In this document: positions 2,440 through 35,488 of the stretch, in pieces | Position numbering within the stretch: the first letter of the stretch is position 1 | How the letters are laid out: every line of letters begins with the position of its first letter | UHGV virus genome: UHGV-0392077 | Source of the DNA: a virus | Length of the DNA: 38,618 nucleotides | Direction: 5' to 3' (one strand) | Position numbers and translations under genes: made by a program | Notes under the pieces: model-generated | Databases searched by the model: none | What the model saw: the letters and a program-made list of their open reading frames with translations, nothing else | Told to the model about the DNA's origin: nothing

Positions 2440-3086
2440 GCTGCACGCTCCCGCCCCTGGTTGTCTGTTGGTGACAGCGGAGCATTGCTGAATGCATTTG
2501 TTAATCCGCCAATATCCAACGCGTATCCGGGGTGTAGTTGCACTGCCGGGTCTTCGCACTGATTACCCCAAACATCGAAGCCATGAGACGACTGGCGGGC
2601 GAACAGTTCAATGCGAGAAACATCGCCTAACAATTGCACAAGTTTTTCACGAACGACATCTGGTTTTCTTGAATGCTCAAGCCGCGGTGCCGTAAATGAC
2701 TGAACGATCCCTGCATTAATGCGCGGAGGTAGTTTTCCCTTTACTGCAAACAGGCAATCTTCACTATTGGCGCGAGTCATGTGACCCATACCCATAACCA
2801 GTTTATCTGGTTGTCGACTACCACATTTTATCCACGTGAATCCCTTCATGGTCATCAGACGGAACCCCCAGGCTTCAACAACTTTTAGTGCTTCGAGTGG
2901 TTGTGTTGGCACCCACCACATGGCCAACAGACAGTTTTCATCGGCCAAATCCCACACAGGAAGGCGGCAGATGTCCAGCACACTCATAACCGGATATTTA
3001 AAACCGGCACCGCGATTACCATCTGCGGCTTTGTCCCGGTATACCCAGGGTGGATCTGCATAGATTAGTGTGTATTTCTTAGTCAT
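2436..3086 (-). CDS. MT-A70 family DNA N6-adenine methyltransferase
   Basis: Contains YADPPWVY (the DPPW catalytic motif of MT-A70-type adenine methyltransferases). ATG at 3086 preferred over GTG at 3098. Confidence 0.8.
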   Translation of the reverse strand: MTKKYTLIYADPPWVYRDKAADGNRGAGFKYPVMSVLDICRLPVWDLADENCLLAMWWVPTQPLEALKVVEAWGFRLMTMKGFTWIKCGSRQPDKLVMGMGHMTRANSEDCLFAVKGKLPPRINAGIVQSFTAPRLEHSRKPDVVREKLVQLLGDVSRIELFARQSSHGFDVWGNQCEDPAVQLHPGYALDIGGLTNAFSNAPLSPTDNQGRERAA

Positions 3087-3378
3087 AAACCACCCCACAA
3101 CATCCTATGCCGCTATAGTCGCCACGGCGAAGGCCGTTACCTTTTGTGATACATTGGTCCCTGCGAACCGCGATCCTCGCACGCTCAACATCACCAGAAG
3201 CAACATCCATACACTGAAGCCAAAGGTGAGCGGCAATGCGGAACTGCCCTTTTTTCTCTCTTTCAATCGCGCGTTTTTCGATCTCTATCGCCGCAGGAGT
3301 AACGGCGACAATCTTTGACGGACTGCGCATTGAAACCTTGTTCATGTGATATTTTTCAAGTCGGCTTAACTTTTTCAC
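3079..3378 (-). CDS. hypothetical protein
   Basis: ORF with GTG start at 3378 (SD-like GAGGG upstream) or ATG at 3345; its stop overlaps the methyltransferase start. No recognisable motif. Confidence 0.45.
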   Translation of the reverse strand: MKKLSRLEKYHMNKVSMRSPSKIVAVTPAAIEIEKRAIEREKKGQFRIAAHLWLQCMDVASGDVERARIAVRRDQCITKGNGLRRGDYSGIGCCGVVYD

Positions 3379-3487
3379 TTAATCCAACCCTCTCTGAAAA
3401 TTAATGCCAGCAGATAAAGCCATGCTGAAACAGAGGCCAGGAATAAGTACCATCCTGACCATTTGCTCCAGTGCCTTAGCAGCACAC

Positions 3488-3736
3488 TCATGCAGCGTTG
3501 CTCACAGGACGATATACACGTTGCTGAACAGGAGGCTTTTTACCCTGGAACTCTGCCGGGCTTGCTGCCTGACGTTCATCAAGCCAACGCTCAACTTCAT
3601 CACGGTTCCATGCGCAGCGTTTGTCAGTGATATACCAGCGTTTAGGAAATTCCCCTGCGCGCTCCATGCGGTCGATAGTGCTCCATGACAGTGGCACCAC
3701 CGCCAGGAGTTCCTTCTTACCTAATGCACCTTTCAT
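3488..3736 (-). CDS. AlpA-family excisionase / transcriptional regulator
   Basis: 82 aa; LSWSTIDRMERAGEFPKRWYI...RCAWNRDEVERWL resembles AlpA/Xis-type winged-HTH proteins that partner P4-type integrases. SD GAGG 7 nt upstream of ATG 3736. Confidence 0.7.
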   Translation of the reverse strand: MKGALGKKELLAVVPLSWSTIDRMERAGEFPKRWYITDKRCAWNRDEVERWLDERQAASPAEFQGKKPPVQQRVYRPVSNAA

Positions 3737-3785
3737 AAATACCTCTCTTGGTTGCAGTGCGGCGCGCGTGGCGCCGCGGTGGTGG

Positions 3786-4703
3786 TTACATAGATGTTTC
3801 GTTTAATTCTTCCCGACGAACGCTGTAAACGTCGGTGGCTTTTGCCAGCAGTTCGTCATCATCTGAAAGTTTTTGTGCAATGTATTTGTAAGCTTTATCC
3901 AGTTCGGAGACAGTGCTGTAATTCATCGCTGCGCTGGTAAAGGCCATCAGCATTTCTTCTGGATCACGGCTATCCGCTTTACGCGTTTGCTCATCAGGCT
4001 TTTTCACTTGTTTAGCGTTGATCAGACTGTTCATGCTGGATGCTGTGCCGTGCTTTGCCTGACTTCTTGGAGTTACGTCACGTTCAATAATGTCAGGTGA
4101 GTCGATATATTTACCTTCCATTTCCTCAGCTGTGGCTTGTTGACCAATCTCCGGCCATGCTTTACGTAATGCCTGTGCCTCTGCGCATTTTGCCAACTGC
4201 GCATAAGGGCGCTTTTTCCACATGGCATTTGGTGCCGATGTGTCACGCCCCCCAGTTGCATAGTTCTCAATCCAGTATTCTTTGGCGCTAAACTCTACGA
4301 TTTCCCCGCTTGCCATTCGCTTGCTGACGGTGTACTTACACCACTGAGGGAAGGTAACCTCCACGCCTGAAAGCGTTTGTGTTACATCTGGACCGAACTC
4401 AGGTTCATTAGCGCCTGCGTAATCGCCGGAACGGTAGGCCTGAATGCGATAAAGTCCAATGCCAGGCATGACCACGTCGCGCCATTCATTCTTTCCACTC
4501 TTCGAGTCTTTAACACTCATTGGTACCAGGTGTACCGGCTTAAGAAGAGGATCGAGTTGACGCGCACGGCAGTAATCGACTGCCATCATTACCGATTCAT
4601 CTTTTGCCCCAGGGTAAATACTGTTTTTCAGAGCGCTCCATGTAACTTCATCGATTCCCCGAATAGCCAACACATCATTGGTGATTGCAATTTCGTTGCT
4701 CAT
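3786..4703 (-). CDS. recT: RecT/Redbeta-family single-strand annealing protein
   Basis: AMWKKRPYAQLAKCAEAQALRKAWPE fits the W..M..K.A...A.R.A.P pattern of the RecT family. ATG 4703 overlaps the stop of the upstream exonuclease gene (ATGA); the ORF track start at 4730 is probably an N-terminal over-extension. Confidence 0.7.
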   Translation of the reverse strand: MSNEIAITNDVLAIRGIDEVTWSALKNSIYPGAKDESVMMAVDYCRARQLDPLLKPVHLVPMSVKDSKSGKNEWRDVVMPGIGLYRIQAYRSGDYAGANEPEFGPDVTQTLSGVEVTFPQWCKYTVSKRMASGEIVEFSAKEYWIENYATGGRDTSAPNAMWKKRPYAQLAKCAEAQALRKAWPEIGQQATAEEMEGKYIDSPDIIERDVTPRSQAKHGTASSMNSLINAKQVKKPDEQTRKADSRDPEEMLMAFTSAAMNYSTVSELDKAYKYIAQKLSDDDELLAKATDVYSVRREELNETSM

Positions 4704-6125: not shown

Positions 6126-6710
6126 TTATTGTTTGCTTTTTTCGTTCTGGTTGATGACAAATTCAATGTAACTTTCGATCTTTGCCTTCTCTGTTTCAGG
6201 TAACAATGCGTAGCGCGAGCGATCATAGTTGATAGTCGCAGGGTCGTGCGGGTGAATCAGTAATTCATAGCCGTGACGCCCGAATGCGGATGCAACATTC
6301 TCCAGGGTGGAAATGGAAACGCTGACTTCATTGTTTAACAGGCGGCTGATTGTCACCTGGGCGACGCCGGATGCGCGGTGAAGTTTTCCCTGTGTTGAAA
6401 GGTCGCGGCTTTCGCTCATCCAGCGTTCCAGGTTGTGAGCCGCCAGCTGACCAATGTCGCTTGGGCCGACAGGCTGAAACCCCTCCTGAGAAAGCGAGCG
6501 ATCGATATCAAGCCAGTTACGGGGTTTATTGGCGGCAGCTTCAATTTTTCGCGCAACCTGGTCGCCGATAACCTTCTTGCCAAGAGCCCAGCGGTTTACC
6601 AGATTTGCCTGAGTTCCAAGTTTTTCTGCCATCCGCGTCTGAACACCATTGAATTCACGGTCGATCAAGTCGTTGAGATTTTGCCTGCGGACGTCCTGGA
6701 TACTTTTCAT
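6126..6710 (-). CDS. phage repressor (CI-like), two HTH-like segments, no S24 peptidase domain
   Basis: 194 aa; HTH-like segments GVQTRMAEKLGTQANLVNRWALGKK and GVAQVTISRLLNNE; no Ser/Lys autoprotease signature. Divergent from the Cro-like gene across an operator cluster. Confidence 0.65.
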   Translation of the reverse strand: MKSIQDVRRQNLNDLIDREFNGVQTRMAEKLGTQANLVNRWALGKKVIGDQVARKIEAAANKPRNWLDIDRSLSQEGFQPVGPSDIGQLAAHNLERWMSESRDLSTQGKLHRASGVAQVTISRLLNNEVSVSISTLENVASAFGRHGYELLIHPHDPATINYDRSRYALLPETEKAKIESYIEFVINQNEKSKQ

Positions 6711-6864: not shown

Positions 6865-7095
6865 ATGAGCGATAACGGACATTTCGATTTCAAAAAGCAC
6901 TGGCTTGCACTTACTCCGGATGAGCGTGAAGCCTTCGCACAGGAAGCCGGAACGACGAGTCACTATATCCAGACTCACTTAACAGGTAAGCGCAAAATGC
7001 CAGGTAAAGTATTGATGAATGGGCTTTTTAAAGCCTGTAAAACAAGACAATGGCTGCGCTCAAAAGCAGAACTGGCATACTTCTTCTACTCATGA
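6865..7095 (+). CDS. Cro-like HTH DNA-binding protein (putative)
   Basis: 76 aa, first gene of the rightward operon, divergent from the repressor; segment EREAFAQEAGTTSHYIQTHLTGKR is HTH-like. Confidence 0.5.
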   Translation: MSDNGHFDFKKHWLALTPDEREAFAQEAGTTSHYIQTHLTGKRKMPGKVLMNGLFKACKTRQWLRSKAELAYFFYS

Positions 7096-16006: not shown

Positions 16007-16083
16007 TGGCGTGGCATGCAGGATTCGAACCTGCGACCAACCGCTTAGAAGGCGGTTGCTCTGTCCAGCTGAGCTAATGCCAC
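16007..16083 (-). tRNA. tRNA-Arg(UCU): tRNA-Arg (anticodon UCU), argU-like, CCA encoded
   Basis: Minus strand folds by hand into a cloverleaf: acceptor GTGGCAT/ATGCCAC, D-arm GCTC...GAGC, anticodon stem ACCGC/GCGGT with loop CTTCTAA (anticodon TCT), T-arm GCAGG-TTCGAAT-CCTGC, discriminator G plus CCA. Resembles E. coli argU as recalled. Confidence 0.8.
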
Positions 16084-30021: not shown

Positions 30022-32496
30022 ATGAGACAGGAATGTATACAAGCGGTCCAGCAGGCGGCGCAGCGCACGTTAACGGCGCGAGAAATACAGAACATTGAAG
30101 ACCGCATTTATCGAAATATGCGCTCCATTGCTCGTGATGACCCGATGTCGTGGAGACAACTTTCCGAATCAGAGCGGCTATATCGTGCAGCACAATTGGC
30201 ATCTGAAGAATTACAGCGAGAAGCGGCATTAAAGAAACGTCGTGTGGCCCTCACTATAGCCGCACGTCAGAGATTGGATAAATTTATCAATAGCTATCAA
30301 GGGGCTGATGGGAAACTTGGCGCTCTTAACCGTACTATTGCTTTTAATGCAGACGGTAAATCGAATTTCCTCTCTGTTGAGTCCAGAACAAAAGCCACTC
30401 GTGATTATGCATTGAGTCAATTGCAAGAGGCATTTGAAGCAGTTGATCCTCGCTTTTTTGGCCTGTTTGAAGATGAAGCTGGCGTGCGTGACTTGGTATA
30501 TGAAATGCGAGGGCAAAATACTGGCAATGCTAAAGCAAGAAAAGGTGCTAAGGCGTGGAGAGAAGTGACAGATCTACTGCGCCGCCGGTTTAATGATGCT
30601 GGTGGGGACATTGGCTATCTCGAAAACTGGGGGATCCCTCAACATCATTCTATGGAAAAGGTTGGGGCGGTATCAAAGGATAAGTGGGTTAGCGATGTTA
30701 TAGGTAAGCTGGATCGCAAATATTATATCCGAGCCGATGGACAACTGATGAACGATGCCGAGTTGTCTGCATTTCTTGGAGAGGCTTATAACACGATCGC
30801 TACTGGTGGGCTGAATAAGCTTACTGATACCGGAATGCGAATTTCCGGCGCACGTGCTAACCGTGGTAATGCATCACGACAGATACATTTCAAAGATGCA
30901 GATTCCTATCTGCAATATCAGCAACTTTATGGCGATCGCTCTCTATGGGAAATCATGGTCGGTCACCTGGAAGGTATCAGTAAAGATATTGCACTGGTGG
31001 AAACATATGGCCCAAACCCCGATCATGTTTTCCGCTCCCTTCTTGATCAGGTTAAGGCAGAAACGGCAACAGCTAACCCGAGTAAAACCGGTAAAGTCGA
31101 GCGGCTGGCGAACAACACAGAGAATCTGTACAACTTTATTTCCGGAAAGACACAGCCTGTAGCGAATCCGCACATCGCGCGATGGTCTGACAATATCCGC
31201 AACTGGCTGGTTGCCAGCAGACTCGGATCCGCGTTGCTGTCATCGTTCTCTGATCTTGGAACCATGTATCTGTCTGCGAAGGTTACCAACCTTCCAATGA
31301 ACCAGTTATTCCGCAACCAACTTGAAGCTATGGACCCAACGAACCGTACAGAACTTGCGCGGGCGCGCCGCGCTGGTCTGGCGATGGAATCTCTACTTGG
31401 CAGCGTTAACCGCTGGGCGATGGATAATATGGGGCCGTCAGTGTCTCGTTGGGCGGCGACGGCGGTAATGCGTGCCAGTGGGCTTACAGCATGGTCAGAT
31501 GCGCACAAGCGCGCCTATGGCGTAACCATGATGGGAAGCCTGGGAGAAGTAGTGTCACGGACACCAGACCTTCGTAGCCTCGATGATTCTGATTTTCGTA
31601 TCCTGAAAAGCAAAGGGATTACTGACACAGACTGGAGCGTATGGAAGCTGGCGCAACAGGAGGACTGGGGGAACGGTAATAATACGATGCTGACACCGGA
31701 AAGCATTATGCGTATCCCTGATTCAGCAGTTAAACATCTTGGTGAGCCTGAACGCGTGAAATTTGAGGCAATGCGTAAACTGCTCGGTGCCGTAACTGAA
31801 GAGGTTGATATGGCTGTTATTACACCGGGAGCACGTGAGCAACTGATAACCGGTTCTGGTATTCAGCGTGGAACATGGAAAGGTGAATTAACGAGAAGTG
31901 TTTTCCTGTTTAAATCGTTCCCTATCTCGGTGGTTATGCGTCACTGGTCACGCGCTATGGGTATGCCGTCTGCTGGTGGGCGTGCGGCATATATTGCGAC
32001 GTTTATTGCCAGTACGACCATTCTTGGCGCTTTGTCGCAGCAACTTAACGACCTTGCGTCTGGTCGTAATCCTCGCGAGATGACAGGAGAAGATGCTGCT
32101 AAATTTTGGCTTGGTGCTCTACTGAAAGGTGGTGGTCTTGGCCTTTACGGTGACTTTTTATTGTCAGATCACACTAGGTACGGAAGCGGCGCGCTGGCAT
32201 CGATGCTTGGCCCGGTAGCTGGTCTGGTTGATGACGTAGTGAAGATTGCTCAGGGCATACCGTTAAATGCTGTGGAAGGGAAGAGTGAGCAGACTGGTGG
32301 TGATCTGATTAAGCTGGGGAAAGGTCTGATGCCAGGTGCGAATCTCTGGTACTTGAAGGCGGCTCTCGATCACATGATCTTTAACCAGATGCAGGAGTAT
32401 TTTTCACCAGGCTATTTGCGTAAAATGGAGCAACGTTCGAAGAAAGAGTTTAACCAGACATACTGGTGGCGACCACAGGATGTCACTCCGCAATAA
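30022..32496 (+). CDS. internal virion / ejection protein (824 aa)
   Basis: Long ORF ending the contiguous plus-strand structural block; hydrophobic segments near residues 650-700. Confidence 0.5.
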   Translation: MRQECIQAVQQAAQRTLTAREIQNIEDRIYRNMRSIARDDPMSWRQLSESERLYRAAQLASEELQREAALKKRRVALTIAARQRLDKFINSYQGADGKLGALNRTIAFNADGKSNFLSVESRTKATRDYALSQLQEAFEAVDPRFFGLFEDEAGVRDLVYEMRGQNTGNAKARKGAKAWREVTDLLRRRFNDAGGDIGYLENWGIPQHHSMEKVGAVSKDKWVSDVIGKLDRKYYIRADGQLMNDAELSAFLGEAYNTIATGGLNKLTDTGMRISGARANRGNASRQIHFKDADSYLQYQQLYGDRSLWEIMVGHLEGISKDIALVETYGPNPDHVFRSLLDQVKAETATANPSKTGKVERLANNTENLYNFISGKTQPVANPHIARWSDNIRNWLVASRLGSALLSSFSDLGTMYLSAKVTNLPMNQLFRNQLEAMDPTNRTELARARRAGLAMESLLGSVNRWAMDNMGPSVSRWAATAVMRASGLTAWSDAHKRAYGVTMMGSLGEVVSRTPDLRSLDDSDFRILKSKGITDTDWSVWKLAQQEDWGNGNNTMLTPESIMRIPDSAVKHLGEPERVKFEAMRKLLGAVTEEVDMAVITPGAREQLITGSGIQRGTWKGELTRSVFLFKSFPISVVMRHWSRAMGMPSAGGRAAYIATFIASTTILGALSQQLNDLASGRNPREMTGEDAAKFWLGALLKGGGLGLYGDFLLSDHTRYGSGALASMLGPVAGLVDDVVKIAQGIPLNAVEGKSEQTGGDLIKLGKGLMPGANLWYLKAALDHMIFNQMQEYFSPGYLRKMEQRSKKEFNQTYWWRPQDVTPQ

Positions 32497-32504
32497 AAGG
32501 AGAT

Positions 32505-32630
32505 ATGATGGTTCAAATAACTTTTATTGTACTAATATGTGCAGCGTTTTTATGCTATTCATACATTTTGATAAAAATGGGTTTCAATTGGAACCTCTGT
32601 TGCGTGCAGCGGCATGGTTCGGCTTTGTAG
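32505..32630 (+). CDS. small hydrophobic peptide (about 40 aa), uncertain
   Basis: AAGGAG at 32497-32502 then ATGATG; hand translation MMVQITFIVLICAAFLCYSYILIKMGFNWNLCCVQRHGSAL*. An alternative frame (32480..32668) also encodes a TM segment. Confidence 0.3.
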   Translation: MMVQITFIVLICAAFLCYSYILIKMGFNWNLCCVQRHGSAL

Positions 32631-32715
32631 TATTCGGAATTGTATTGTTCGGAAGAATAATAAAATAACTAGTTAATTTGTGGATTGGTGCTGTTTTTCC
32701 ATGATAGGGGTAATT

Positions 32716-33096
32716 ATGAGAAAAGTATTTTTGATTTTTGGATTTATGCTTCTCGTTGGATGCCAGTCAGCTGCACAGTTTGAAAGAAATATGCTTACGT
32801 GGCGTGGGCAGAGTATAGACGCAATGGTTCAGCAGTGGGGGTATCCTCAGGGAGAGCTTACATCTCCAGATGGAAACAGAGTGTATGTTTACTCAAGCTC
32901 TGGTAGTTATAACGTACCACAAACCACAACGTATAATACTACGTCTAATCTAATTGGTAATACTATATATTCAAACACATATGCAACAACTGATGGCGGT
33001 TATACACTCCATTTCAGTTGCTCTGTTTACGTTGAGTTTGGTGCTGATAAGATTATTAAAAATGTTACATGGCGCGGTAATAATTGCGTTGCGTGA
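32716..33096 (+). CDS. lipoprotein (moron; possible superinfection-exclusion factor)
   Basis: Signal peptide MRKVFLIFGFMLLVGC with lipobox LVG|C; AGGGG 6 nt upstream of ATG 32716; conspicuously AT-rich compared with its flanks. Confidence 0.65.
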   Translation: MRKVFLIFGFMLLVGCQSAAQFERNMLTWRGQSIDAMVQQWGYPQGELTSPDGNRVYVYSSSGSYNVPQTTTYNTTSNLIGNTIYSNTYATTDGGYTLHFSCSVYVEFGADKIIKNVTWRGNNCVA

Positions 33097-33104: not shown

Positions 33105-33130
33105 AGGCCGCTTTCGCGGCCTTGTTTTTA
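33105..33130 (+). terminator. rho-independent terminator of the lipoprotein gene
   Basis: AGGCCGC-TTTC-GCGGCCT followed by TGTTTTT. Confidence 0.6.
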
Positions 33131-33169: not shown

Positions 33170-33190
33170 AAAAAAGCCCGCGGCGCGGGC
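33170..33190 (-). terminator. terminator of the minus-strand antirepressor operon
   Basis: GC-rich hairpin GCCCG-CGGCG-CGGGC with TTTTT on the minus strand, directly after the stop at 33191. Confidence 0.5.
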
Positions 33191-33739
33191 TTACTTTTCT
33201 TCAGGTTTGTTGTCTTCAGATTTCTTCTTGATGCTTGGTTTTTGTCTAAGAACGAAAATACCAGCCACTGCAACAACTGTACCGATCACTGTGCCTGCTA
33301 GAACTTCATGACCTGTTAAACCTAATAATGTTGCACAAGCTACTGTAAAAATAGTTGCACTCAGGCCAAACCACTGCCCACGTTTATCTCTATTAATAGC
33401 CCCGTCAAGTGCCTTTTCCTCCATTTTCTGGCGGTGAGCAAACTCCTTCTCCGTCAGCTGGAAGATGCGTTCGGGGGCATCAGGTAAAATATCCTGATAC
33501 CCGCGAAGCAGATAAGGGGGAGGAAGCGGACCCTGAAACGCATGGTGAGCGACAACTATCTCCTGAATTTCAGGGCGATCAAGAACTCTTGTGAAGGCAT
33601 CTGGGTGTTGAATGATCTCGTTACTTAGCCCTTCCTCAACTTCCTCGAACTCAGTTTCTTCGTTATCACTTGGTTGCCCAATAGATTTTTGCATATTTGT
33701 CGAAGGACATTCCTTTAGCTTCTGGTTTTCCTCTTGCAT
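33191..33739 (-). CDS. hypothetical membrane protein (possible superinfection-exclusion protein)
   Basis: Acidic N-terminal region and two C-terminal TM helices (WFGLSATIFTVACATLLGL; VLAGTVIGTVVAVAGIFVL). The true start may be the internal ATG at 33694. Confidence 0.5.
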   Translation of the reverse strand: MQEENQKLKECPSTNMQKSIGQPSDNEETEFEEVEEGLSNEIIQHPDAFTRVLDRPEIQEIVVAHHAFQGPLPPPYLLRGYQDILPDAPERIFQLTEKEFAHRQKMEEKALDGAINRDKRGQWFGLSATIFTVACATLLGLTGHEVLAGTVIGTVVAVAGIFVLRQKPSIKKKSEDNKPEEK

Positions 33740-33992
33740 TTGAGTTTTTCCCTGTCACTATTGCCCATTTTCCGCCAGCAGGCGCTGCAATTTTTTTTCC
33801 GTTCTTTACTATATATTCAGCATAAACACGATTTTCTGACCGTCTGAGATCGTCTCCGACCATATTCATGTCTCTTGATATAACTTTGACGACAGAGTCT
33901 CGGTTTAAAGCCTTGGCATAGTTGGAGCCAGGAACGATACCCAAAGGGGTGCCAGACTCTATAGCCAGCTCCTTGACATATCTTCTGCTCAT
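33666..33992 (-). CDS. hypothetical protein (108 aa)
   Basis: ATG 33992 with GAGGT 5 nt upstream; overlaps the start of the downstream membrane-protein gene; operator site lies just upstream. Confidence 0.4.
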   Translation of the reverse strand: MSRRYVKELAIESGTPLGIVPGSNYAKALNRDSVVKVISRDMNMVGDDLRRSENRVYAEYIVKNGKKIAAPAGGKWAIVTGKNSNARGKPEAKGMSFDKYAKIYWATK

Positions 33993-34013
33993 ATGAACCT
34001 CAACCAATCGACT

Positions 34014-34028
34014 TTACCAATCGGGTAA
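34014..34028. promoter_or_regulatory. operator-like palindrome TTACC-aatcg-GGTAA
   Basis: Perfect half-sites between ant and the 108-aa gene. Confidence 0.5.
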
Positions 34029-34113
34029 TTTTAAACATGAGTATAATGCTTTTAACTGCAACGAGTGTAAACAATTATTGATAATTGTAGGCACATCCAT
34101 GTGCCGCCGCCCG

Positions 34114-34824
34114 TCAGAAGAACCCAGCCTTGTCGTTGATGTACTCCGCGTGTGTCTGGATATCACGCAGGCATTTGCTCACACCGACGATGTAGCAGAA
34201 CATGGTGGTCAGCTCCGCCGCCGCGCCCGATACGTCGTGCCCGTCTTCCTGTAACTGGTTCAGCAGATTCATCAGCAGTGAGTGCTCCGTCAGGCCGAGA
34301 ACACCAGACGGCGAATGAATCAGGCTACGGTAGCCGGGCTTCAGTGGGGCACTGTAGGTTTTGTTCTCTATCTTCATTGCCTGCATTACTGCTGACGCCG
34401 TGGCGTTGGCTACCTGGTCGGCAACCATCTTTATGCGTTCTTCCTGCGGTAGCGAGTTTTTAATGTAACTTCCGGTGCGGCGGATCTGAGGAAGAACCTC
34501 ACCTGTAACCCATTTGCGAAAGCGGTAGGGGATAGTGCCTGGTGTCACTGCGTCGCGGCAGCGGAGGATCAGTGTGTAGAGGCCTGACTCGGAGATGATG
34601 TTGATCTCTTTTACTCGGCTATCAAAAATTGCACGATGTTCATGCCCTATGTTGAACATAGACCTTTCATCATCATCCAGTTTTTCAAGTGCTTGGGTGA
34701 CGTTTTGGATACGCAGCGCACTACAAACGTCTTGGGCTACAAACCATGGTTGGCCATCGATAATGATGGAACGGATAGGGTTAACAGATTCAAATTTGAA
34801 GATGGCAGTTTGAGCATTAGCCAT
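34114..34824 (-). CDS. ant: antirepressor, Bro-N domain (Ant-like)
   Basis: N-terminus FKFESVNPIRSIIIDGQPWFVAQDVCSALRIQNVTQALEKLDDDE matches the Bro-N / P22 Ant-type domain. ATG 34824 with GGAG upstream. The C-terminal domain is paralogous to gene 35140..35397. Confidence 0.7.
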   Translation of the reverse strand: MANAQTAIFKFESVNPIRSIIIDGQPWFVAQDVCSALRIQNVTQALEKLDDDERSMFNIGHEHRAIFDSRVKEINIISESGLYTLILRCRDAVTPGTIPYRFRKWVTGEVLPQIRRTGSYIKNSLPQEERIKMVADQVANATASAVMQAMKIENKTYSAPLKPGYRSLIHSPSGVLGLTEHSLLMNLLNQLQEDGHDVSGAAAELTTMFCYIVGVSKCLRDIQTHAEYINDKAGFF

Positions 34825-34842
34825 GGTGGTTATCTCCACTTA

Positions 34843-34856
34843 GTGATTTTAATCAC
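34843..34856. promoter_or_regulatory. 14-bp palindrome GTGATTTTAATCAC upstream of ant (candidate operator)
   Basis: Perfect inverted repeat GTGATT/AATCAC, 19 bp upstream of the ant start codon; distinct from the TTACC-N5-GGTAA family. Confidence 0.4.
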
Positions 34857-34979
34857 CACCGCAACGCCAATTACTGGTGGTGAACTGGACAAGGTTGGCG
34901 TACCGGCCTAAGTGGTACCGGCGTCCTTTCGGACCCCTGCCCAGCCCACCATAATTCGGATATGGCTGTGCTTAACGCA

Positions 34980-35003
34980 TAAAAAAACCACGTCTGGCGT
35001 GGT
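34980..35003 (-). terminator. rho-independent terminator after the small LexA-boxed gene
   Basis: Minus strand ACCACG-CCAGA-CGTGGT followed by TTTTTTT. Confidence 0.6.
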
Positions 35004-35093
35004 ATGCGCCACTTAGTAACTCGGGACGCCAATCCCGGCACTGGATTTTGCCAGTACCCGATTACTATGGCACAAGAGGAGTGCGATGTAAAT

Positions 35094-35108
35094 TTACCGC
35101 AAAGGTAA
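35094..35108. promoter_or_regulatory. operator-like palindrome TTACC-gcaaa-GGTAA
   Basis: Between the stop of the small gene and its terminator. Confidence 0.5.
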
Positions 35109-35139
35109 ATATAAGCACTCCACTTGGTAATTGCAAACC

Positions 35140-35397
35140 TTATCTGGTTTGTTTTCGTAATTGTTCGGCACAATAGTCGAGATGTGTTTGCAGATCCTGC
35201 ATAGACATCTGTGAGCTGGTGACGTAGTTAATCAGTGCAGTCAGTTCGGCAAGTGGGCCATCGACATTAAATCCATCCTTATCGAGATCCCGGAGTAATT
35301 TCATCAAGTGCGATCCCTCCACTAGTGATCTGACGCCTCCCGGCGTGTGAATCCTTTCGGTAAATCCGTCTTCCAGTGGATAGTGATACTGCTGCAT
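35140..35397 (-). CDS. small protein (85 aa) paralogous to the Ant C-terminal domain; candidate SOS-inducible antirepressor
   Basis: Aligns by eye with the Ant C-terminus (IHTPGGVRSLVEGSHLMKLLRDLDKDGFNVDGPLAELT...DLQTHLDY versus IHSPSGVLGLTEHSLLMNLLNQLQEDGHDVSGAAAELT...DIQTHAEY). Start set at ATG 35397 because the ORF-track extension to 35520 translates the LexA box. Confidence 0.55.
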   Translation of the reverse strand: MQQYHYPLEDGFTERIHTPGGVRSLVEGSHLMKLLRDLDKDGFNVDGPLAELTALINYVTSSQMSMQDLQTHLDYCAEQLRKQTR

Positions 35398-35416: not shown

Positions 35417-35436
35417 AACTGTATATTTATACAGTA
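35417..35436. promoter_or_regulatory. LexA (SOS) box
   Basis: AACTGTATATTTATACAGTA is CTGT-N8-ACAG with an AT-rich core, close to the E. coli consensus TACTGTATATATATACAGTA; 22 nt upstream of the small gene's ATG. Confidence 0.7.
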
Positions 35437-35473: not shown

Positions 35474-35488
35474 TTACCCGAAAGGTAA
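35474..35488. promoter_or_regulatory. operator-like palindrome ATTACC-cgaaa-GGTAAT
   Basis: Perfect 17-bp palindrome between the LexA-boxed promoter and the tailspike gene. Confidence 0.5.

What the first reader, a model, noticed from the sequence alone, without database searches (positions are those of the whole stretch)
33191..35139. P22 immI-like antirepressor block inserted between ejection-protein genes and the tailspike
A minus-strand operon (Bro-N Ant, a 108-aa protein, a two-TM membrane protein) sits between the last ejection-protein gene and the tailspike gene, the same position the immI region (ant/arc/mnt, with sieA nearby) occupies in P22 as I recall it. A perfect 14-bp palindrome GTGATTTTAATCAC lies 19 bp upstream of ant and is unlike the TTACC-N5-GGTAA family, so ant may have its own small repressor (Arc/Mnt-like), possibly the 108-aa protein. 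The membrane protein is a candidate superinfection-exclusion factor by position. A GC-rich structured stretch (about 34900-34980) between the upstream terminator and ant could encode a small RNA like P22 sar.
Basis: partly seen in the sequence, partly recalled or inferred. Interest (0 to 1): 0.6.

Follow-up and report, generated by a model that had tools for sequence, protein, structure and literature searches.

The report
RNA-gated antirepressor module in a prophage
The block is a phage P1-style (not P22-style) immunity module in which a small C4 RNA made from the antirepressor gene's own leader blocks its ribosome-binding site; it sits next to a second, SOS-controlled antirepressor, and all parts belong to known families, so it is a tidy but ordinary example.

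Summary
The three minus-strand genes, their position and a structured GC-rich stretch are real. The window is an epsilon15/phiV10-like E. coli prophage.

**What the leader holds.** The stretch upstream of the Bro-N antirepressor gene matches two Rfam families above their curated thresholds: C4 antisense RNA (34873-34956) and isrK (34981-35057). The layout matches annotated phage P1 immI site for site. A repressor operator sits at the promoter, a1/b1 decoy sites lie upstream, and a2/b2 targets lie downstream with b2 over the ant Shine-Dalgarno.

**Evidence it works.** The C4 loops and their targets co-vary without exception across 15 loci.

**The "14-bp palindrome".** It is a 6+2+6 inverted repeat, and the window holds 19 of that class. 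It lies inside the ant mRNA leader between a2 and b2, where P1 also has a hairpin. It is an RNA hairpin, not an operator.

**The downstream genes.** The 108-aa protein shows no Arc/Mnt signal. It is the fixed partner of the DUF2335 membrane protein in a mobile two-gene cassette that also occurs without ant.

The adjacent 85-aa gene (35140-35397) is the SPC32H-type antirepressor (PDB 5D50), preceded by a LexA box. The Bro-N Ant C-terminus carries the same domain.

Known kind, new member.

The parts
35474..35488 (.). Repressor (Rep) operator TTACCCGAAAGGTAA, upstream of the small ant gene.
   Evidence: 15 such sites with at most 1 mismatch, against 0.67 expected. It is present at the same place in 8 of the 10 loci checked; in phiV10 and TL-2011b the site reads GGTGA (one mismatch).
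35419..35434 (.). LexA (SOS) box, TACTGTATAAATATACAGT on the minus strand, about 20 nt upstream of the small ant ATG.
   Evidence: CTGT-N8-ACAG is conserved in 8 of 10 relatives although the centre varies; the two Klebsiella relatives carry ATGT...ACAG.
35140..35397 (-). Small antirepressor, 85 aa, SPC32H Ant type.
   Evidence: PDB 5D50 chain E 'Anti-repressor protein', E 4.1e-47 over residues 2-84. PHROG 450.
35108..35136 (-). Promoter-like site TTGCAA-17-TATATT. The -35 hexamer starts 4 nt after the small ant stop codon.
   Evidence: Conserved in ZX5, phiV10 and phiv142-3. Consensus match only.
35094..35108 (.). Rep operator TTACCTTTGCGGTAA (minus strand). It abuts the -10 of the upstream promoter and lies 1 nt from the -35 of the downstream one. 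Analogue of P1 Oc4/Op51.
   Evidence: The TTACC/GGTAA arms are conserved with variable N5 in all nine Uetakevirus-type relatives. P1 annotation.
35064..35092 (-). Promoter-like site TTTACA-17-(TG)CATAGT. The predicted start near 35057 equals position 1 of the Rfam isrK model.
   Evidence: The motif is conserved in L001-L009.
34981..35057 (-). IsrK-like leader RNA. It carries a1 (UUGGCGU, 35032-35026), b1 (CUAAGUGG, 35016-35009) and an intrinsic terminator (stem 35003-34987 plus U7).
   Evidence: Rfam RF01394, 63.5 bits (gathering score 50). RF03163 c4-a1b1, 43.4 bits (gathering score 46.7, so just below). Terminator.
34873..34956 (-). C4 antisense RNA. a' is ACGCCAA (34901-34895). b' is CCACUUAG (34915-34908), in the loop of the second hairpin.
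   Evidence: Rfam RF01695, 66 bits (gathering score 45). The fold reproduces the structure, z = -4.6 for the whole leader.
34864..34870 (-). a2 target, UUGGCGU, 3 nt downstream of the Rfam C4 match.
   Evidence: Perfect 7-nt complement to a'. Same position and length as P1 a2.
34843..34856 (-). In RNA it reads GUGAUUAAAAUCAC and forms a hairpin between a2 and b2. Its last C is the first base of b2.
   Evidence: P1 has CAGGUU-GUUA-AACCUG at the equivalent place.
34834..34843 (-). b2 target CUAAGUGG (34843-34836), overlapping the ant Shine-Dalgarno GGAG (34837-34834).
   Evidence: Perfect 8-nt complement to b'. P1 b2 likewise overlaps the icd ribosome-binding site.
34114..34824 (-). Bro-N antirepressor, 236 aa. 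N-terminal Bro-N domain plus a C-terminal SPC32H-Ant-like domain (residues 155-231).
   Evidence: Pfam Bro-N 9.6e-20. 42% identity to the 85-aa Ant. PDB 5D50_E, 2.2e-13. 81% identical to ZX5 ORF4, which was tested by overexpression (PMC9782041).
34043..34071 (-). Promoter-like site TTTACA-17-CATTAT for the downstream cassette.
   Evidence: Consensus match only.
34014..34028 (.). Rep operator at about +8 to +22 of the cassette promoter.
   Evidence: An operator is kept at this slot in relatives with different cargo (TL-2011b, phiv142-3, L015).
33666..33992 (-). 108-aa protein of unknown function. First gene of a two-gene cassette.
   Evidence: PHROG 10654, unknown function. Only a handful of true homologues among 1.8 billion representatives.
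33191..33739 (-). DUF2335 protein with two C-terminal transmembrane helices. Second gene of the cassette. Overlaps the 108-aa gene by 74 nt, or 29 nt if it starts at M16.
   Evidence: Pfam PF10097. PHROG 3996 'membrane protein'. Hydropathy.
33174..33192 (.). Bidirectional terminator hairpin that ends the minus-strand block.

Best explanation
The block is a secondary immunity (immI) module of the phage P1/P7 type, inserted into an epsilon15/phiV10-like prophage next to that family's usual SOS-controlled antirepressor.

**Repressor.** The prophage repressor Rep is the 194-aa protein at 6126-6710. It has two HTH domains, no S24 peptidase domain, and is a homologue of SPC32H Rep. It binds TTACC-N5-GGTAA operators. 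Three of these lie in the region: in front of the small ant gene, at the isrK/C4/ant promoter, and in front of the downstream cassette.

**SOS trigger.** LexA additionally covers the small ant promoter. DNA damage removes LexA. The 85-aa Ant is then made and takes Rep tetramers apart, as shown for SPC32H. This derepresses the second promoter.

**RNA gate.** Transcripts from the second promoter mostly stop at the terminator, giving an IsrK-like RNA that carries a1/b1. Read-through transcripts carry C4, which in P1 is cut out by RNase P. C4 pairs through a' and b' with a2 and b2 in the ant leader. Because b2 overlaps the Shine-Dalgarno, translation of the Bro-N antirepressor is blocked. The a1/b1 RNA competes for the same C4 loops. 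In Gifsy-1, IsrK supplied in trans raises translation of the downstream antirepressor about 140-fold.

**The second antirepressor.** The Bro-N Ant carries the same Rep-binding-type domain as the small Ant, so when translated it reinforces Rep inactivation.

**The 'palindrome'.** It is a hairpin in the leader RNA between a2 and b2.

**The downstream genes.** The 108-aa and DUF2335 genes are a separate, mobile, Rep-controlled two-gene cassette of unknown function. They are not regulators of ant.

**Shown here:** family matches, site layout, covariation, domain homology.
**Inferred:** promoter use, RNA processing, Rep/LexA binding, and Rep binding by the Bro-N Ant.
For: - Rfam C4 at 66 bits and isrK at 63.5 bits, both above gathering score. 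They are the only such hits in the window.
- Site-for-site agreement with annotated P1 immI. The order is operator, promoter(s), a1, b1, terminator-like hairpin, C4, a2 (7 nt, just 3' of C4), hairpin, b2 (8 nt, over the ribosome-binding site).
- Across 15 loci the a and b sequences change: four a types and at least eight b types. In every case C4, the upstream copy and the downstream copy change together.
- The leader folds far better than shuffles (z -4.6), with the C4 cloverleaf-like fold and the a2-b2 hairpin in the minimum-energy structure.
- The Rep operator next to the promoter is conserved, with variable N5, in all Uetakevirus-type relatives.
- Small Ant matches PDB 5D50_E (4e-47) and Rep matches 5D50_A (3.5e-42). 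Rep has no peptidase domain.
- The LexA box is conserved.
- The Bro-N Ant C-terminus is homologous to the small Ant.
- In ZX5 the 81%-identical ORF4 lowered prophage titre about 1000-fold when overexpressed (PMC9782041).
- IsrK activation of AnrP translation: PMC4825925.
- P1 immI summary: PMC8201110.
- C4 and c4-a1b1 motifs in Proteobacteria and phages: PMC2864571.
Against: - No icd-like ORF is coupled to ant. The best candidate is a 20-codon TTG-start ORF with no Shine-Dalgarno, so the P1 mechanism of translation-dependent anti-polarity cannot be copied exactly.
- The controlled protein is unrelated to P1 Ant1 (P1 Ant1 has the KilAC domain).
- Both candidate promoters touch a Rep operator. 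C4 may therefore not be made in a stable lysogen. In P1, by contrast, one c4 promoter (P51b) lies clear of the operator in the record's annotation. The role in superinfection immunity is then uncertain.
- The Gifsy-1 study interprets the homologous leader as an mRNA structural switch with an upstream ORF, not as a processed antisense RNA.
- No expression data exist for this prophage.
- c4-a1b1 scores 43.4 bits, just under its gathering score of 46.7.
Confidence: 0.8

Rival explanations
1. One reading: a P22-type immI. A small Arc/Mnt-like protein, perhaps the 108-aa product, represses ant by binding the palindrome. A sar-like RNA transcribed antisense to the ant leader adds a second layer of control.
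For: - The genome position matches P22 immI.
- An inverted repeat lies 18 nt upstream of the ant ATG.
- A true P22-type Arc/Ant/sar unit sits next to the C4 module in the relative TL-2011b, so such units do occur in this slot.
Against: - Rfam gives no sar hit in the window, although the same search finds sar in TL-2011b.
- No plus-strand promoter-like site lies opposite the ant leader.
- The repeat is imperfect and of a common class.
- Only its left arm is conserved in relatives, where it pairs with other partners in the RNA.
- The 108-aa protein has no ribbon-helix-helix or other family match.
- It travels with DUF2335 even where there is no ant gene.
Confidence: 0.03
2. The leader works mainly as a cis-acting mRNA switch of the Gifsy-1 IsrK type. 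In the long transcript the a1 region pairs with the a' region to lock an inactive fold. The short IsrK RNA opens that fold in trans and activates ant translation. No processed, trans-acting C4 repressor is needed.
For: - The isrK match is above threshold.
- Gifsy-1 genetics show IsrK positions G28 and G31 pairing with C162 and C159 of the 'orf45' region. By position these correspond to a1 and a' here (with coordinates worked out).
- IsrK in trans gives about 140-fold activation.
Against: - The downstream a2/b2 copies co-vary with C4 just as strictly as a1/b1 do, and b2 always overlaps the ribosome-binding site or start codon. A pure a1-a' switch does not explain this.
- A processed RNA (STnc1160) from the 'orf45' region is seen in Gifsy-1.
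- There is no orf45-like coupled ORF here.
- The two views are compatible: IsrK may act as a decoy for C4.
Confidence: 0.12
3. The module is a decaying remnant with no current function.
For: In phiV10 the Bro-N ant gene is frameshifted in its C-terminal domain.
Against: - The ORF is intact here.
- The region is 100% identical in two complete E. coli genomes and at least 80% covered in 49.
- All six RNA pairing sites are perfectly matched.
- The close homologue in ZX5 is active when expressed.
Confidence: 0.03

Closest known systems
Phage P1/P7 immI operon (Oc4/Op51 - a1 b1 - c4 - a2 b2 - icd - ant1/ant2)
   Same: - A repressor operator sits at the promoter.
- a1/b1 copies lie upstream of C4 and are followed by a terminator-like hairpin.
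- The C4 RNA has the same fold (Rfam RF01695).
- a2 is 7 nt and lies directly 3' of C4.
- A hairpin lies between a2 and b2.
- b2 is 8 nt and overlaps the ribosome-binding site of the first gene.
- The controlled product is an antirepressor.

   Different: - There is no icd gene; C4 targets the ant ribosome-binding site directly.
- The antirepressor is Bro-N plus an SPC32H-Ant-like domain and is unrelated to P1 Ant1, which has the KilAC domain.
- The repressor is an SPC32H-type two-HTH protein with palindromic operators, not P1 C1.
- Both candidate promoters touch the operator.
- The host phage is an integrated podovirus, not a plasmid prophage.
Gifsy-1 isrK-orf45-anrP locus (Salmonella)
   Same: - The same leader RNA family (Rfam RF01394, 63.5 bits).
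- The same order: IsrK with its terminator, then the C4-like region, then an antirepressor gene.
- The same arrangement occurs in Stx phages such as VT2-Sakai and CP-1639.

   Different: - There is no orf45-type ORF overlapping the ant start.
- The promoter here carries the phage repressor's operator.
- Homology of the controlled protein to AnrP was not tested.
SPC32H Rep-Ant system (epsilon15-like Salmonella phage; PDB 5D50, 5D4Z)
   Same: - The small Ant matches at E 4e-47 with near-identical sequence, and Rep matches at E 3.5e-42.
- A LexA box lies in front of ant.
- The position is next to the tailspike gene.
   Different: - Salmonella epsilon15-like phages have only this small ant in the slot and carry no isrK or C4.
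- The window adds a second, RNA-gated antirepressor that reuses the same domain.
P22 immI (mnt-arc-ant with sar RNA)
   Same: - The genome position, between the ejection-protein genes and the tailspike gene.
- The general purpose: keeping an antirepressor silent.
   Different: - No Arc or Mnt homologue, no sar RNA, and no P22_AR domains.
- Control is by a sense-strand leader RNA.

Membership tests
P1/P7-type immI (C4-controlled antirepressor) | A C4 RNA with the family's fold. | tested here: met
   RF01695, 66 bits against a gathering score of 45, full-length match to model positions 1-87.
P1/P7-type immI (C4-controlled antirepressor) | Downstream targets a2 and b2 complementary to the C4 loops, with b2 over the ribosome-binding site. 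| tested here: met
   Perfect complements of 7 nt and 8 nt. b2 (34843-34836) overlaps GGAG (34837-34834). The sites co-vary in 15 loci.
P1/P7-type immI (C4-controlled antirepressor) | Upstream a1/b1 copies. | tested here: met
   Sequences identical to a2/b2 lie at 35032-35026 and 35016-35009. RF03163 scores 43.4 bits, just under its gathering score of 46.7.
P1/P7-type immI (C4-controlled antirepressor) | A promoter under control of the primary repressor. | tested here: inconclusive
   The operator at 35094-35108 touches both promoter-like sites and is conserved. Binding was not tested.
P1/P7-type immI (C4-controlled antirepressor) | An icd ORF translationally coupled to ant. | tested here: not met
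   No ORF of 30 aa or more ends at the ant start. By reading the sequence, only a 20-codon TTG-start ORF is present.
P1/P7-type immI (C4-controlled antirepressor) | An antirepressor homologous to P1 Ant1/Ant2. | tested here: not met
   BLASTP E 5.1. P1 Ant1 has KilAC, the window protein has Bro-N.
P1/P7-type immI (C4-controlled antirepressor) | C4 is released from the leader by RNase P. | not testable with these tools
   The 3' CACCACC motif is conserved. Processing itself needs an experiment.
P22 immI | Arc and Mnt ribbon-helix-helix repressors. | tested here: not met
   No RHH or other family hit for any ORF of the block.
P22 immI | A sar RNA antisense to the ant leader. | tested here: not met
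   No RF00262 hit in the window. Positive control: sar is found in TL-2011b at 44.8 bits.
P22 immI | A P22-type Ant with P22_AR_N and P22_AR_C domains. | tested here: not met
   Only Bro-N is found. P22_AR domains are detected in the control proteins.
P22 immI | Location between the ejection-protein genes and the tailspike gene. | tested here: met
   The P22 gene order itself is from my own knowledge.
SPC32H Rep/Ant antirepression | A small Ant homologue and a Rep homologue lacking an autocleavage domain. | tested here: met
   5D50_E at 4.1e-47 and 5D50_A at 3.5e-42. Rep shows HTH domains only.
SPC32H Rep/Ant antirepression | LexA control of ant. | tested here: inconclusive
   A consensus CTGT-N8-ACAG box lies 20 nt upstream of the ATG and is conserved in relatives. 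Binding was not tested.
Gifsy-1 IsrK/AnrP | An IsrK RNA with its own terminator upstream of an antirepressor gene. | tested here: met
   RF01394, 63.5 bits against a gathering score of 50. Terminator.
Gifsy-1 IsrK/AnrP | orf45 translationally coupled to the antirepressor gene. | tested here: not met
   No such ORF.
Superinfection exclusion protein (SieA-like) for the DUF2335 protein | Expressed from the prophage and blocks incoming phage. | not testable with these tools
   No PADLOC hit. The Rep operator downstream of its promoter-like site predicts repression in the lysogen. The AF2 model is of low confidence, pLDDT 59.5.

The most novel reading that the evidence does not exclude
The E. coli, Klebsiella and Enterobacter branch of epsilon15-like phages may run a two-tier antirepressor circuit that has not been described. 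An SOS-triggered small Ant starts Rep inactivation. An RNA-gated Bro-N fusion that reuses the same Rep-binding-type domain then locks it in. The IsrK-like a1/b1 RNA would act as a sponge for C4. The a and b loop sequences are shuffled independently between otherwise near-identical prophages: the window shares its a type with ZX5 and its b type with phiv142-3. This would create RNA-level heteroimmunity groups. Separately, the Rep-controlled 108-aa + DUF2335 pair could be a new two-gene exclusion or abortive-infection cassette.
Probability: 0.2. Interest if true: 0.5.

Novelty: new member of a known kind. Interest (0 to 1): 0.3.

Why it matters
- **Annotation.** It corrects the record for a common E. 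coli prophage module. Some part of it is present in 549 of 5426 complete genomes. The 'hypothetical' ORFs called across this leader in ZX5, VT2-Sakai and Hafnia phage yong2 ('Ash family protein', orf34) overlap non-coding C4/IsrK RNAs.
- **Portability of the RNA cassette.** The P1-type cassette (a1b1-C4-a2b2) is a movable controller placed in front of unrelated antirepressors: KilAC in P1, ORF6N/P22_AR_C in Stx phages, and Bro-N/SPC32H-Ant here.
- **Link between studies.** The Gifsy-1 IsrK work concerns the same module.
- **Induction biology.** These prophages have two routes to repressor inactivation, one through SOS and one gated by RNA.
- **An open item.** The 108-aa + DUF2335 cassette remains a small unknown worth a knockout.

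Tried and rejected
- **AlphaFold2, 108-aa protein.** Seven-sequence alignment, mean pLDDT 52.5. Too poor for a fold search, so none was run.
- **AlphaFold2, DUF2335 protein.** Sixteen sequences, mean pLDDT 59.5, pTM 0.22, all-helical. Also too poor for a fold search.
- **Exhaustive HMMER search with the 108-aa protein.** It gave 19 hits. Most are multi-stretch matches to giant repetitive proteins (Big_9, cadherin-like, DUF4431), which I treat as compositional noise. Only P0008, P0014, P0020 and P0022 look like true homologues.
- **Family libraries.** PADLOC and NCBIfam gave nothing for the block's proteins.
- **Outer symmetry around the Rep operators.** I looked for it because phiV10 has a 41-bp palindrome at the C4 promoter. 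There is no general pattern.
- **AAGTGGAG in the upstream promoter spacer as a third b-type site.** Rejected, because it does not co-vary with b in ZX5 or phiv142-3.
- **Papers not held in the library.** The SPC32H papers (J Virol 2013, PNAS 2016) and the P1 genome paper. Statements about Rep tetramer disassembly rest on a secondary description in PMC9638917. Statements about P1 c4/RNase P/icd rest on the P1 GenBank annotation, PMC8201110 and my own knowledge of Citron & Schuster 1990 and Hartmann et al. 1995.
- **Formal count of structure pairs.** Not done for the intermolecular pairs, because the length of b varies. The script table stands in for it.


Full report
**1. What the window is**

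The region around the finding matches Uetakevirus (epsilon15/phiV10-like) E. coli phages. The best matches are vB_EcoP_ZX5, EC.W1-9, HEMP4, phiV10 and TL-2011b, at 92-98% identity over patches. It is 100% identical to prophages in two complete E. coli genomes. Some part of it occurs in 549 of 5426 complete genomes, and 49 genomes cover at least 80%.

**2. Checking the observation**

The three minus-strand ORFs exist:
- 33191-33739 is a DUF2335 protein (Pfam 1.6e-15; PHROG 3996 'membrane protein'). It has two hydrophobic helices near residues 123-165.
- 33666-33992 encodes 108 aa with no Pfam match.
- 34114-34824 encodes a Bro-N protein (Pfam 9.6e-20; PHROG 'anti-repressor Ant').

They lie between the 824-aa ejection-type protein gene and the tailspike gene. 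Two small plus-strand genes intervene.

The '14-bp perfect palindrome' at 34843-34856 is in fact a 6+2+6 inverted repeat. The window contains 19 repeats of that class, against 9.1 +/- 3.0 in shuffles. By itself it is not remarkable.

**3. The GC-rich stretch is a C4 RNA, and the leader is laid out like P1 immI**

Rfam gives two matches on the minus strand, both above their curated thresholds:
- C4 antisense RNA (RF01695) at 34873-34956, 66 bits against a gathering score of 45.
- isrK (RF01394) at 34981-35057, 63.5 bits against a gathering score of 50.

The c4-a1b1 motif scores 43.4 bits at 35018-35070, just below its gathering score of 46.7.

I fetched the richly annotated P1 record and read its sequence. 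The table compares the two leaders. P1 coordinates are in locus L014. Window coordinates are on the minus strand.

| Element | P1 (L014) | Window |
|---|---|---|
| Repressor operator | Oc4, 3141-3157 | 35108-35094 |
| Promoters | 3156-3184 (P51a), 3196-3224 (P51b) | TTGCAA-17-TATATT and TTTACA-17-CATAGT |
| a1 | 7 nt, 3256-3262 | UUGGCGU, 35032-35026 |
| b1 | 8 nt, 3270-3277 | CUAAGUGG, 35016-35009 |
| Terminator | terminator-like hairpin | stem 35003-34987 plus U7 |
| C4 RNA | 3344-3420 | 34956-34873 (a' ACGCCAA, b' CCACUUAG) |
| a2 | 3 nt after C4 | 34870-34864 |
| Hairpin between a2 and b2 | CAGGUU-GUUA-AACCUG | GUGAUUAAAAUCAC, 34856-34843 |
| b2 | over the icd ribosome-binding site | 34843-34836, overlapping GGAG at 34837-34834 |
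| First gene | icd, then ant1/ant2 | ant, ATG at 34824 |

The lengths (7 and 8 nt) and spacings are close. a1 to b1 is 16 nt in the window and 14 in P1. a2 to b2 is 27 nt in the window and 29 in P1.

The second promoter-like site predicts a start at about 35057. That is exactly position 1 of the isrK model.

**4. Covariation shows the pairing is under selection**

I fetched 13 related leaders and confirmed isrK plus C4 in each. They come from ZX5, phiV10, TL-2011b, phiv142-3, Tyrion, EC.W1-9, three Klebsiella phages, Hafnia yong2, a Yersinia phage, CP-1639 and VT2-Sakai. A script then listed the best complementary stretches between the C4 core and its flanks.

The a and b sequences differ between phages. 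In each phage the C4 loop, the upstream copy and the downstream copy match one another.

| Phage(s) | a / a' | b / b' |
|---|---|---|
| Window | UUGGCGU / ACGCCAA | CUAAGUGG / CCACUUAG |
| ZX5, phiV10, TL-2011b | as window | CUAAAAGG / CCUUUUAG |
| phiv142-3 | UUGGUCU / AGACCAA | as window |
| Tyrion, EC.W1-9, ST512phi13.3 | UUGGUCU / AGACCAA | CUACAAAGG / CCUUUGUAG |
| Kp4865-1 | UUGAGAC / GUCUCAA | CUACAAAGG / CCUUUGUAG |
| ST11-OXA245phi3.2 | as window | CUAAACGG (b1), CUAAGCGG (b2) / CCGUUUAG |
| Hafnia yong2 | as window | UCGCAAGAGG / UCUCUUGCGA |
| Yersinia vB_YpM_41 | as window | UCAUCAUGA / UCAUGAUGA (over the start codon) |
| P1 | UUGACAG / CUGUCAA | GUUAGUG / CACUAAC |

CP-1639 and VT2-Sakai share the window's a type. 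Their b pairing is shorter (b' CGGUUUC) and was read by eye from the sequences, not returned by the script.

The a and b types assort independently. The window shares its a type with ZX5 and its b type with phiv142-3. This is the pattern expected for specificity determinants of an RNA repressor.

**5. The 'palindrome' explained**

It lies in the transcribed leader between a2 and b2, and its last base is the first base of b2.
- Its left arm is part of GGUGGUGAU(UAA), which follows a2 in every enterobacterial relative.
- In most relatives that motif pairs with AUCAC or ACCAC immediately before the AUG. The resulting stem-loop encloses b2 and the Shine-Dalgarno.
- In the window and in Hafnia yong2 the partner lies adjacent, giving a local hairpin.
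- In the fold of the whole 248-nt leader the hairpin GGUGAUUAAAAUCACU is part of the minimum-energy structure. That structure also reproduces the IsrK hairpins and the C4 fold. The z-score is -4.6, and none of 200 shuffles folds as well.
- P1 has an unrelated 6-bp hairpin in the same place.

The sequence occurs nowhere else in the window. An RNA role accounts for it fully. A protein operator is not excluded but is not needed.

**6.

- The next minus-strand ORF (35140-35397, 85 aa from the ATG with a GGAG site) matches PDB 5D50 chain E, 'Anti-repressor protein', at E 4.1e-47.
- The 194-aa protein at 6126-6710 matches 5D50 chain A, 'Repressor', at 3.5e-42. It is flanked by TTACC-N5-GGTAA sites. 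It has HTH domains only and no S24 peptidase domain.
- 5D50 is the Rep-Ant complex of the epsilon15-like Salmonella phage SPC32H. A secondary source describes Ant as a tetramer that binds two Rep dimers and breaks the DNA-binding Rep tetramer (PMC9638917). A review places this phage among the LexA-controlled antirepressor systems (PMC7380047).
- A consensus LexA box (CTGTATAAATATACAG on the minus strand, 35434-35419) lies about 20 nt upstream of the small ant ATG. It is conserved in relatives although its centre varies.
- A Rep operator lies about 40 bp further upstream (35474-35488).

Residues 155-231 of the Bro-N Ant are homologous to this small Ant: 42% identity with E 2e-15, PHROG 450 at 7.6e-36, and 5D50_E at 2.2e-13. 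The P22-type Ant of TL-2011b carries the same domain at its C-terminus. The simplest reading is that this domain is the Rep-binding module, fused to different N-terminal domains.

The window's Bro-N Ant is 81% identical to ZX5 ORF4, and nearly identical from residue 80 onward. Overexpression of ZX5 ORF4 cut prophage titre from 10^9 to 10^6 and lowered repressor transcription by 75% (PMC9782041).

Salmonella epsilon15-like phages have only the small ant in this slot and carry no isrK or C4. The isrK-C4-BroN-ant unit is therefore an insertion in the E. coli, Klebsiella and Enterobacter branch.

**7. The 108-aa protein and the DUF2335 protein**

- The 108-aa protein has very few relatives: 7 clusters in the 5.8-billion-sequence set, and a handful of true small homologues in the exhaustive search.
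- Those relatives share N-terminal (E-G-x-x-LG-x-x-P-x-x-x-Y) and C-terminal (YA-x-x-Y-x-x-TK) motifs around a variable middle.
- The gene is always followed by, and overlaps, a DUF2335 gene. This holds in ZX5 and EC.W1-9, in a metagenomic contig and in Klebsiella prophages, where the gene was not called.
- It also holds in Rahnella lambdoid prophages, where the pair sits behind a Q-type antiterminator with no ant or C4 nearby.

It is therefore one half of a mobile two-gene cassette, not ant's regulator.

In the window the cassette has its own promoter-like site (TTTACA-17-CATTAT, 34071-34043). A Rep operator lies at about +8 to +22 (34028-34014). Relatives with different cargo in this slot also keep a Rep operator directly after a -10-like box. 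TL-2011b carries a YafO-type toxin pair there, and phiv142-3 carries small ORFs.

That predicts the cargo is silent in lysogens and switched on with the early genes. This argues against a classical prophage-expressed exclusion function but does not exclude one. Structure predictions for both proteins were of low confidence. No defence-system or NCBIfam model matches.

**8. Mechanism proposed**

In the lysogen, Rep occupies the three operators and LexA covers the small ant promoter. The sequence of events would then be:
1. DNA damage removes LexA.
2. The small Ant is made and dismantles Rep.
3. The isrK/C4/ant promoter fires.
4. Most transcripts end at the IsrK terminator.
5. Read-through transcripts deliver C4, which pairs with a2/b2 and blocks the ant ribosome-binding site.
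6. IsrK (a1/b1) competes for C4.

The amount of Bro-N Ant would therefore depend on the IsrK:C4 balance. When made, Bro-N Ant reinforces Rep inactivation. On infection of a naive cell the same circuit would give a pulse of Ant that C4 then shuts off.

The family matches, site geometry, covariation and domain homologies are shown here. Promoter use, RNA processing, protein-DNA and protein-protein binding, and the timing are inferred from P1, Gifsy-1 and SPC32H.

The main uncertainty is whether C4 is made in the uninduced lysogen, because both candidate promoters touch the Rep operator. In Gifsy-1 the homologous RNAs (IsrK, STnc1160) are abundant in lysogens (PMC7067206).

**9. Comparison and novelty**

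The RNA part meets the defining features of P1-type immI, except that there is no icd and no Ant1 homologue. None of the defining P22 immI features is met except position.

C4 and c4-a1b1 have been catalogued in Proteobacteria and phages since 2010 (PMC2864571). phiV10's authors already labelled the protein 'putative anti-immunity protein'. The ZX5 paper tested the protein but did not mention the RNA among the passages retrieved.

The module is thus a new member of a known kind. Two modestly new points are the pairing of two antirepressors that share one domain under different controls, and the independent assortment of a and b types among near-identical prophages.

Noticed in passing
window 32680-33096 (+), probable start about 32716: A 138-aa ORF whose sequence from M13 reads MRKVFLIFGFMLLVGC, a lipoprotein-type signal. 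PHROG 3716, unknown function. It has its own terminator at 33105-33122. It follows a 62-aa hydrophobic ORF (32480-32668); the small ORF at the same position in phiV10 is annotated as an integral membrane protein with two predicted TM helices. By position and type it is at least as good an exclusion-factor candidate as the DUF2335 protein.
   Followed up: partly
window 934-37632 (15 sites; e.g. 5992, 6054, 6766, 6814, 9053, 9115, 13243, 13261, 16406): TTACC-N5-GGTAA operators are scattered over the whole genome: 15 with at most 1 mismatch, against 0.67 expected. Two pairs are about 62 bp apart. They flank the Rep gene (6126-6710) and a cro-like ORF (6865-7095). Many dispersed operators recall the P1 C1 regulon more than a lambda-type immunity region.
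   Followed up: partly
window 16010-16083 (-): A tRNA gene (Rfam RF00005, 71.7 bits) inside the prophage.
   Followed up: no
L003 (TL-2011b) 280-1464 and 3383-3581: TL-2011b carries both a true P22-type immI (Arc-like repressor, Ant with a P22_AR_N domain, sar RNA at 451-518) and the C4-type module a few kb apart. Its P22-type Ant also ends in the SPC32H-Ant-like domain (44% identity). That makes three antirepressor genes with one shared domain in a single phage.
   Followed up: partly
L002 (phiV10) 2840-3045: The C-terminal domain of the phiV10 Bro-N antirepressor is split across two frames and annotated as p23 plus p22. This looks like a frameshifted, probably inactive copy.
   Followed up: no
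L001 1779-1892; L013 1563-1736; L010 1282-1965: Protein-coding genes annotated over the C4/IsrK leader in public records ('ash family protein', orf34, 'Ash family protein') overlap the non-coding RNAs. They are probably mis-annotations, or orf45-like leader ORFs.
   Followed up: partly
window 34852-34860 versus 34875-34883: The conserved GGUGGUGA just after a2 is complementary to the 3' strand of the C4 outer stem (UCACCACC). In the unprocessed precursor it could compete with the C4 5' strand, giving an alternative fold like the 'structure A/B' switch described for Gifsy-1.
   Followed up: no
L016/L017 (Rahnella prophages) 3182-3998: The pair of the 108-aa-family gene and the DUF2335 gene sits directly downstream of a Q-type antiterminator gene. 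This is the classical moron slot of lambdoid phages, and the short gene overlap is the same as in the window.
   Followed up: partly
L002 (phiV10), about 3741-3781, upstream of isrK: In phiV10 the Rep operator at the C4 promoter is the centre of a perfect 41-bp palindrome (GGAGTGCTTATATTTACC-GCAAA-GGTAAATATAAGCACTCC). The window keeps only the outer GGAGTGC/GCACTCC and the core. Other operators show no such outer symmetry.
   Followed up: partly
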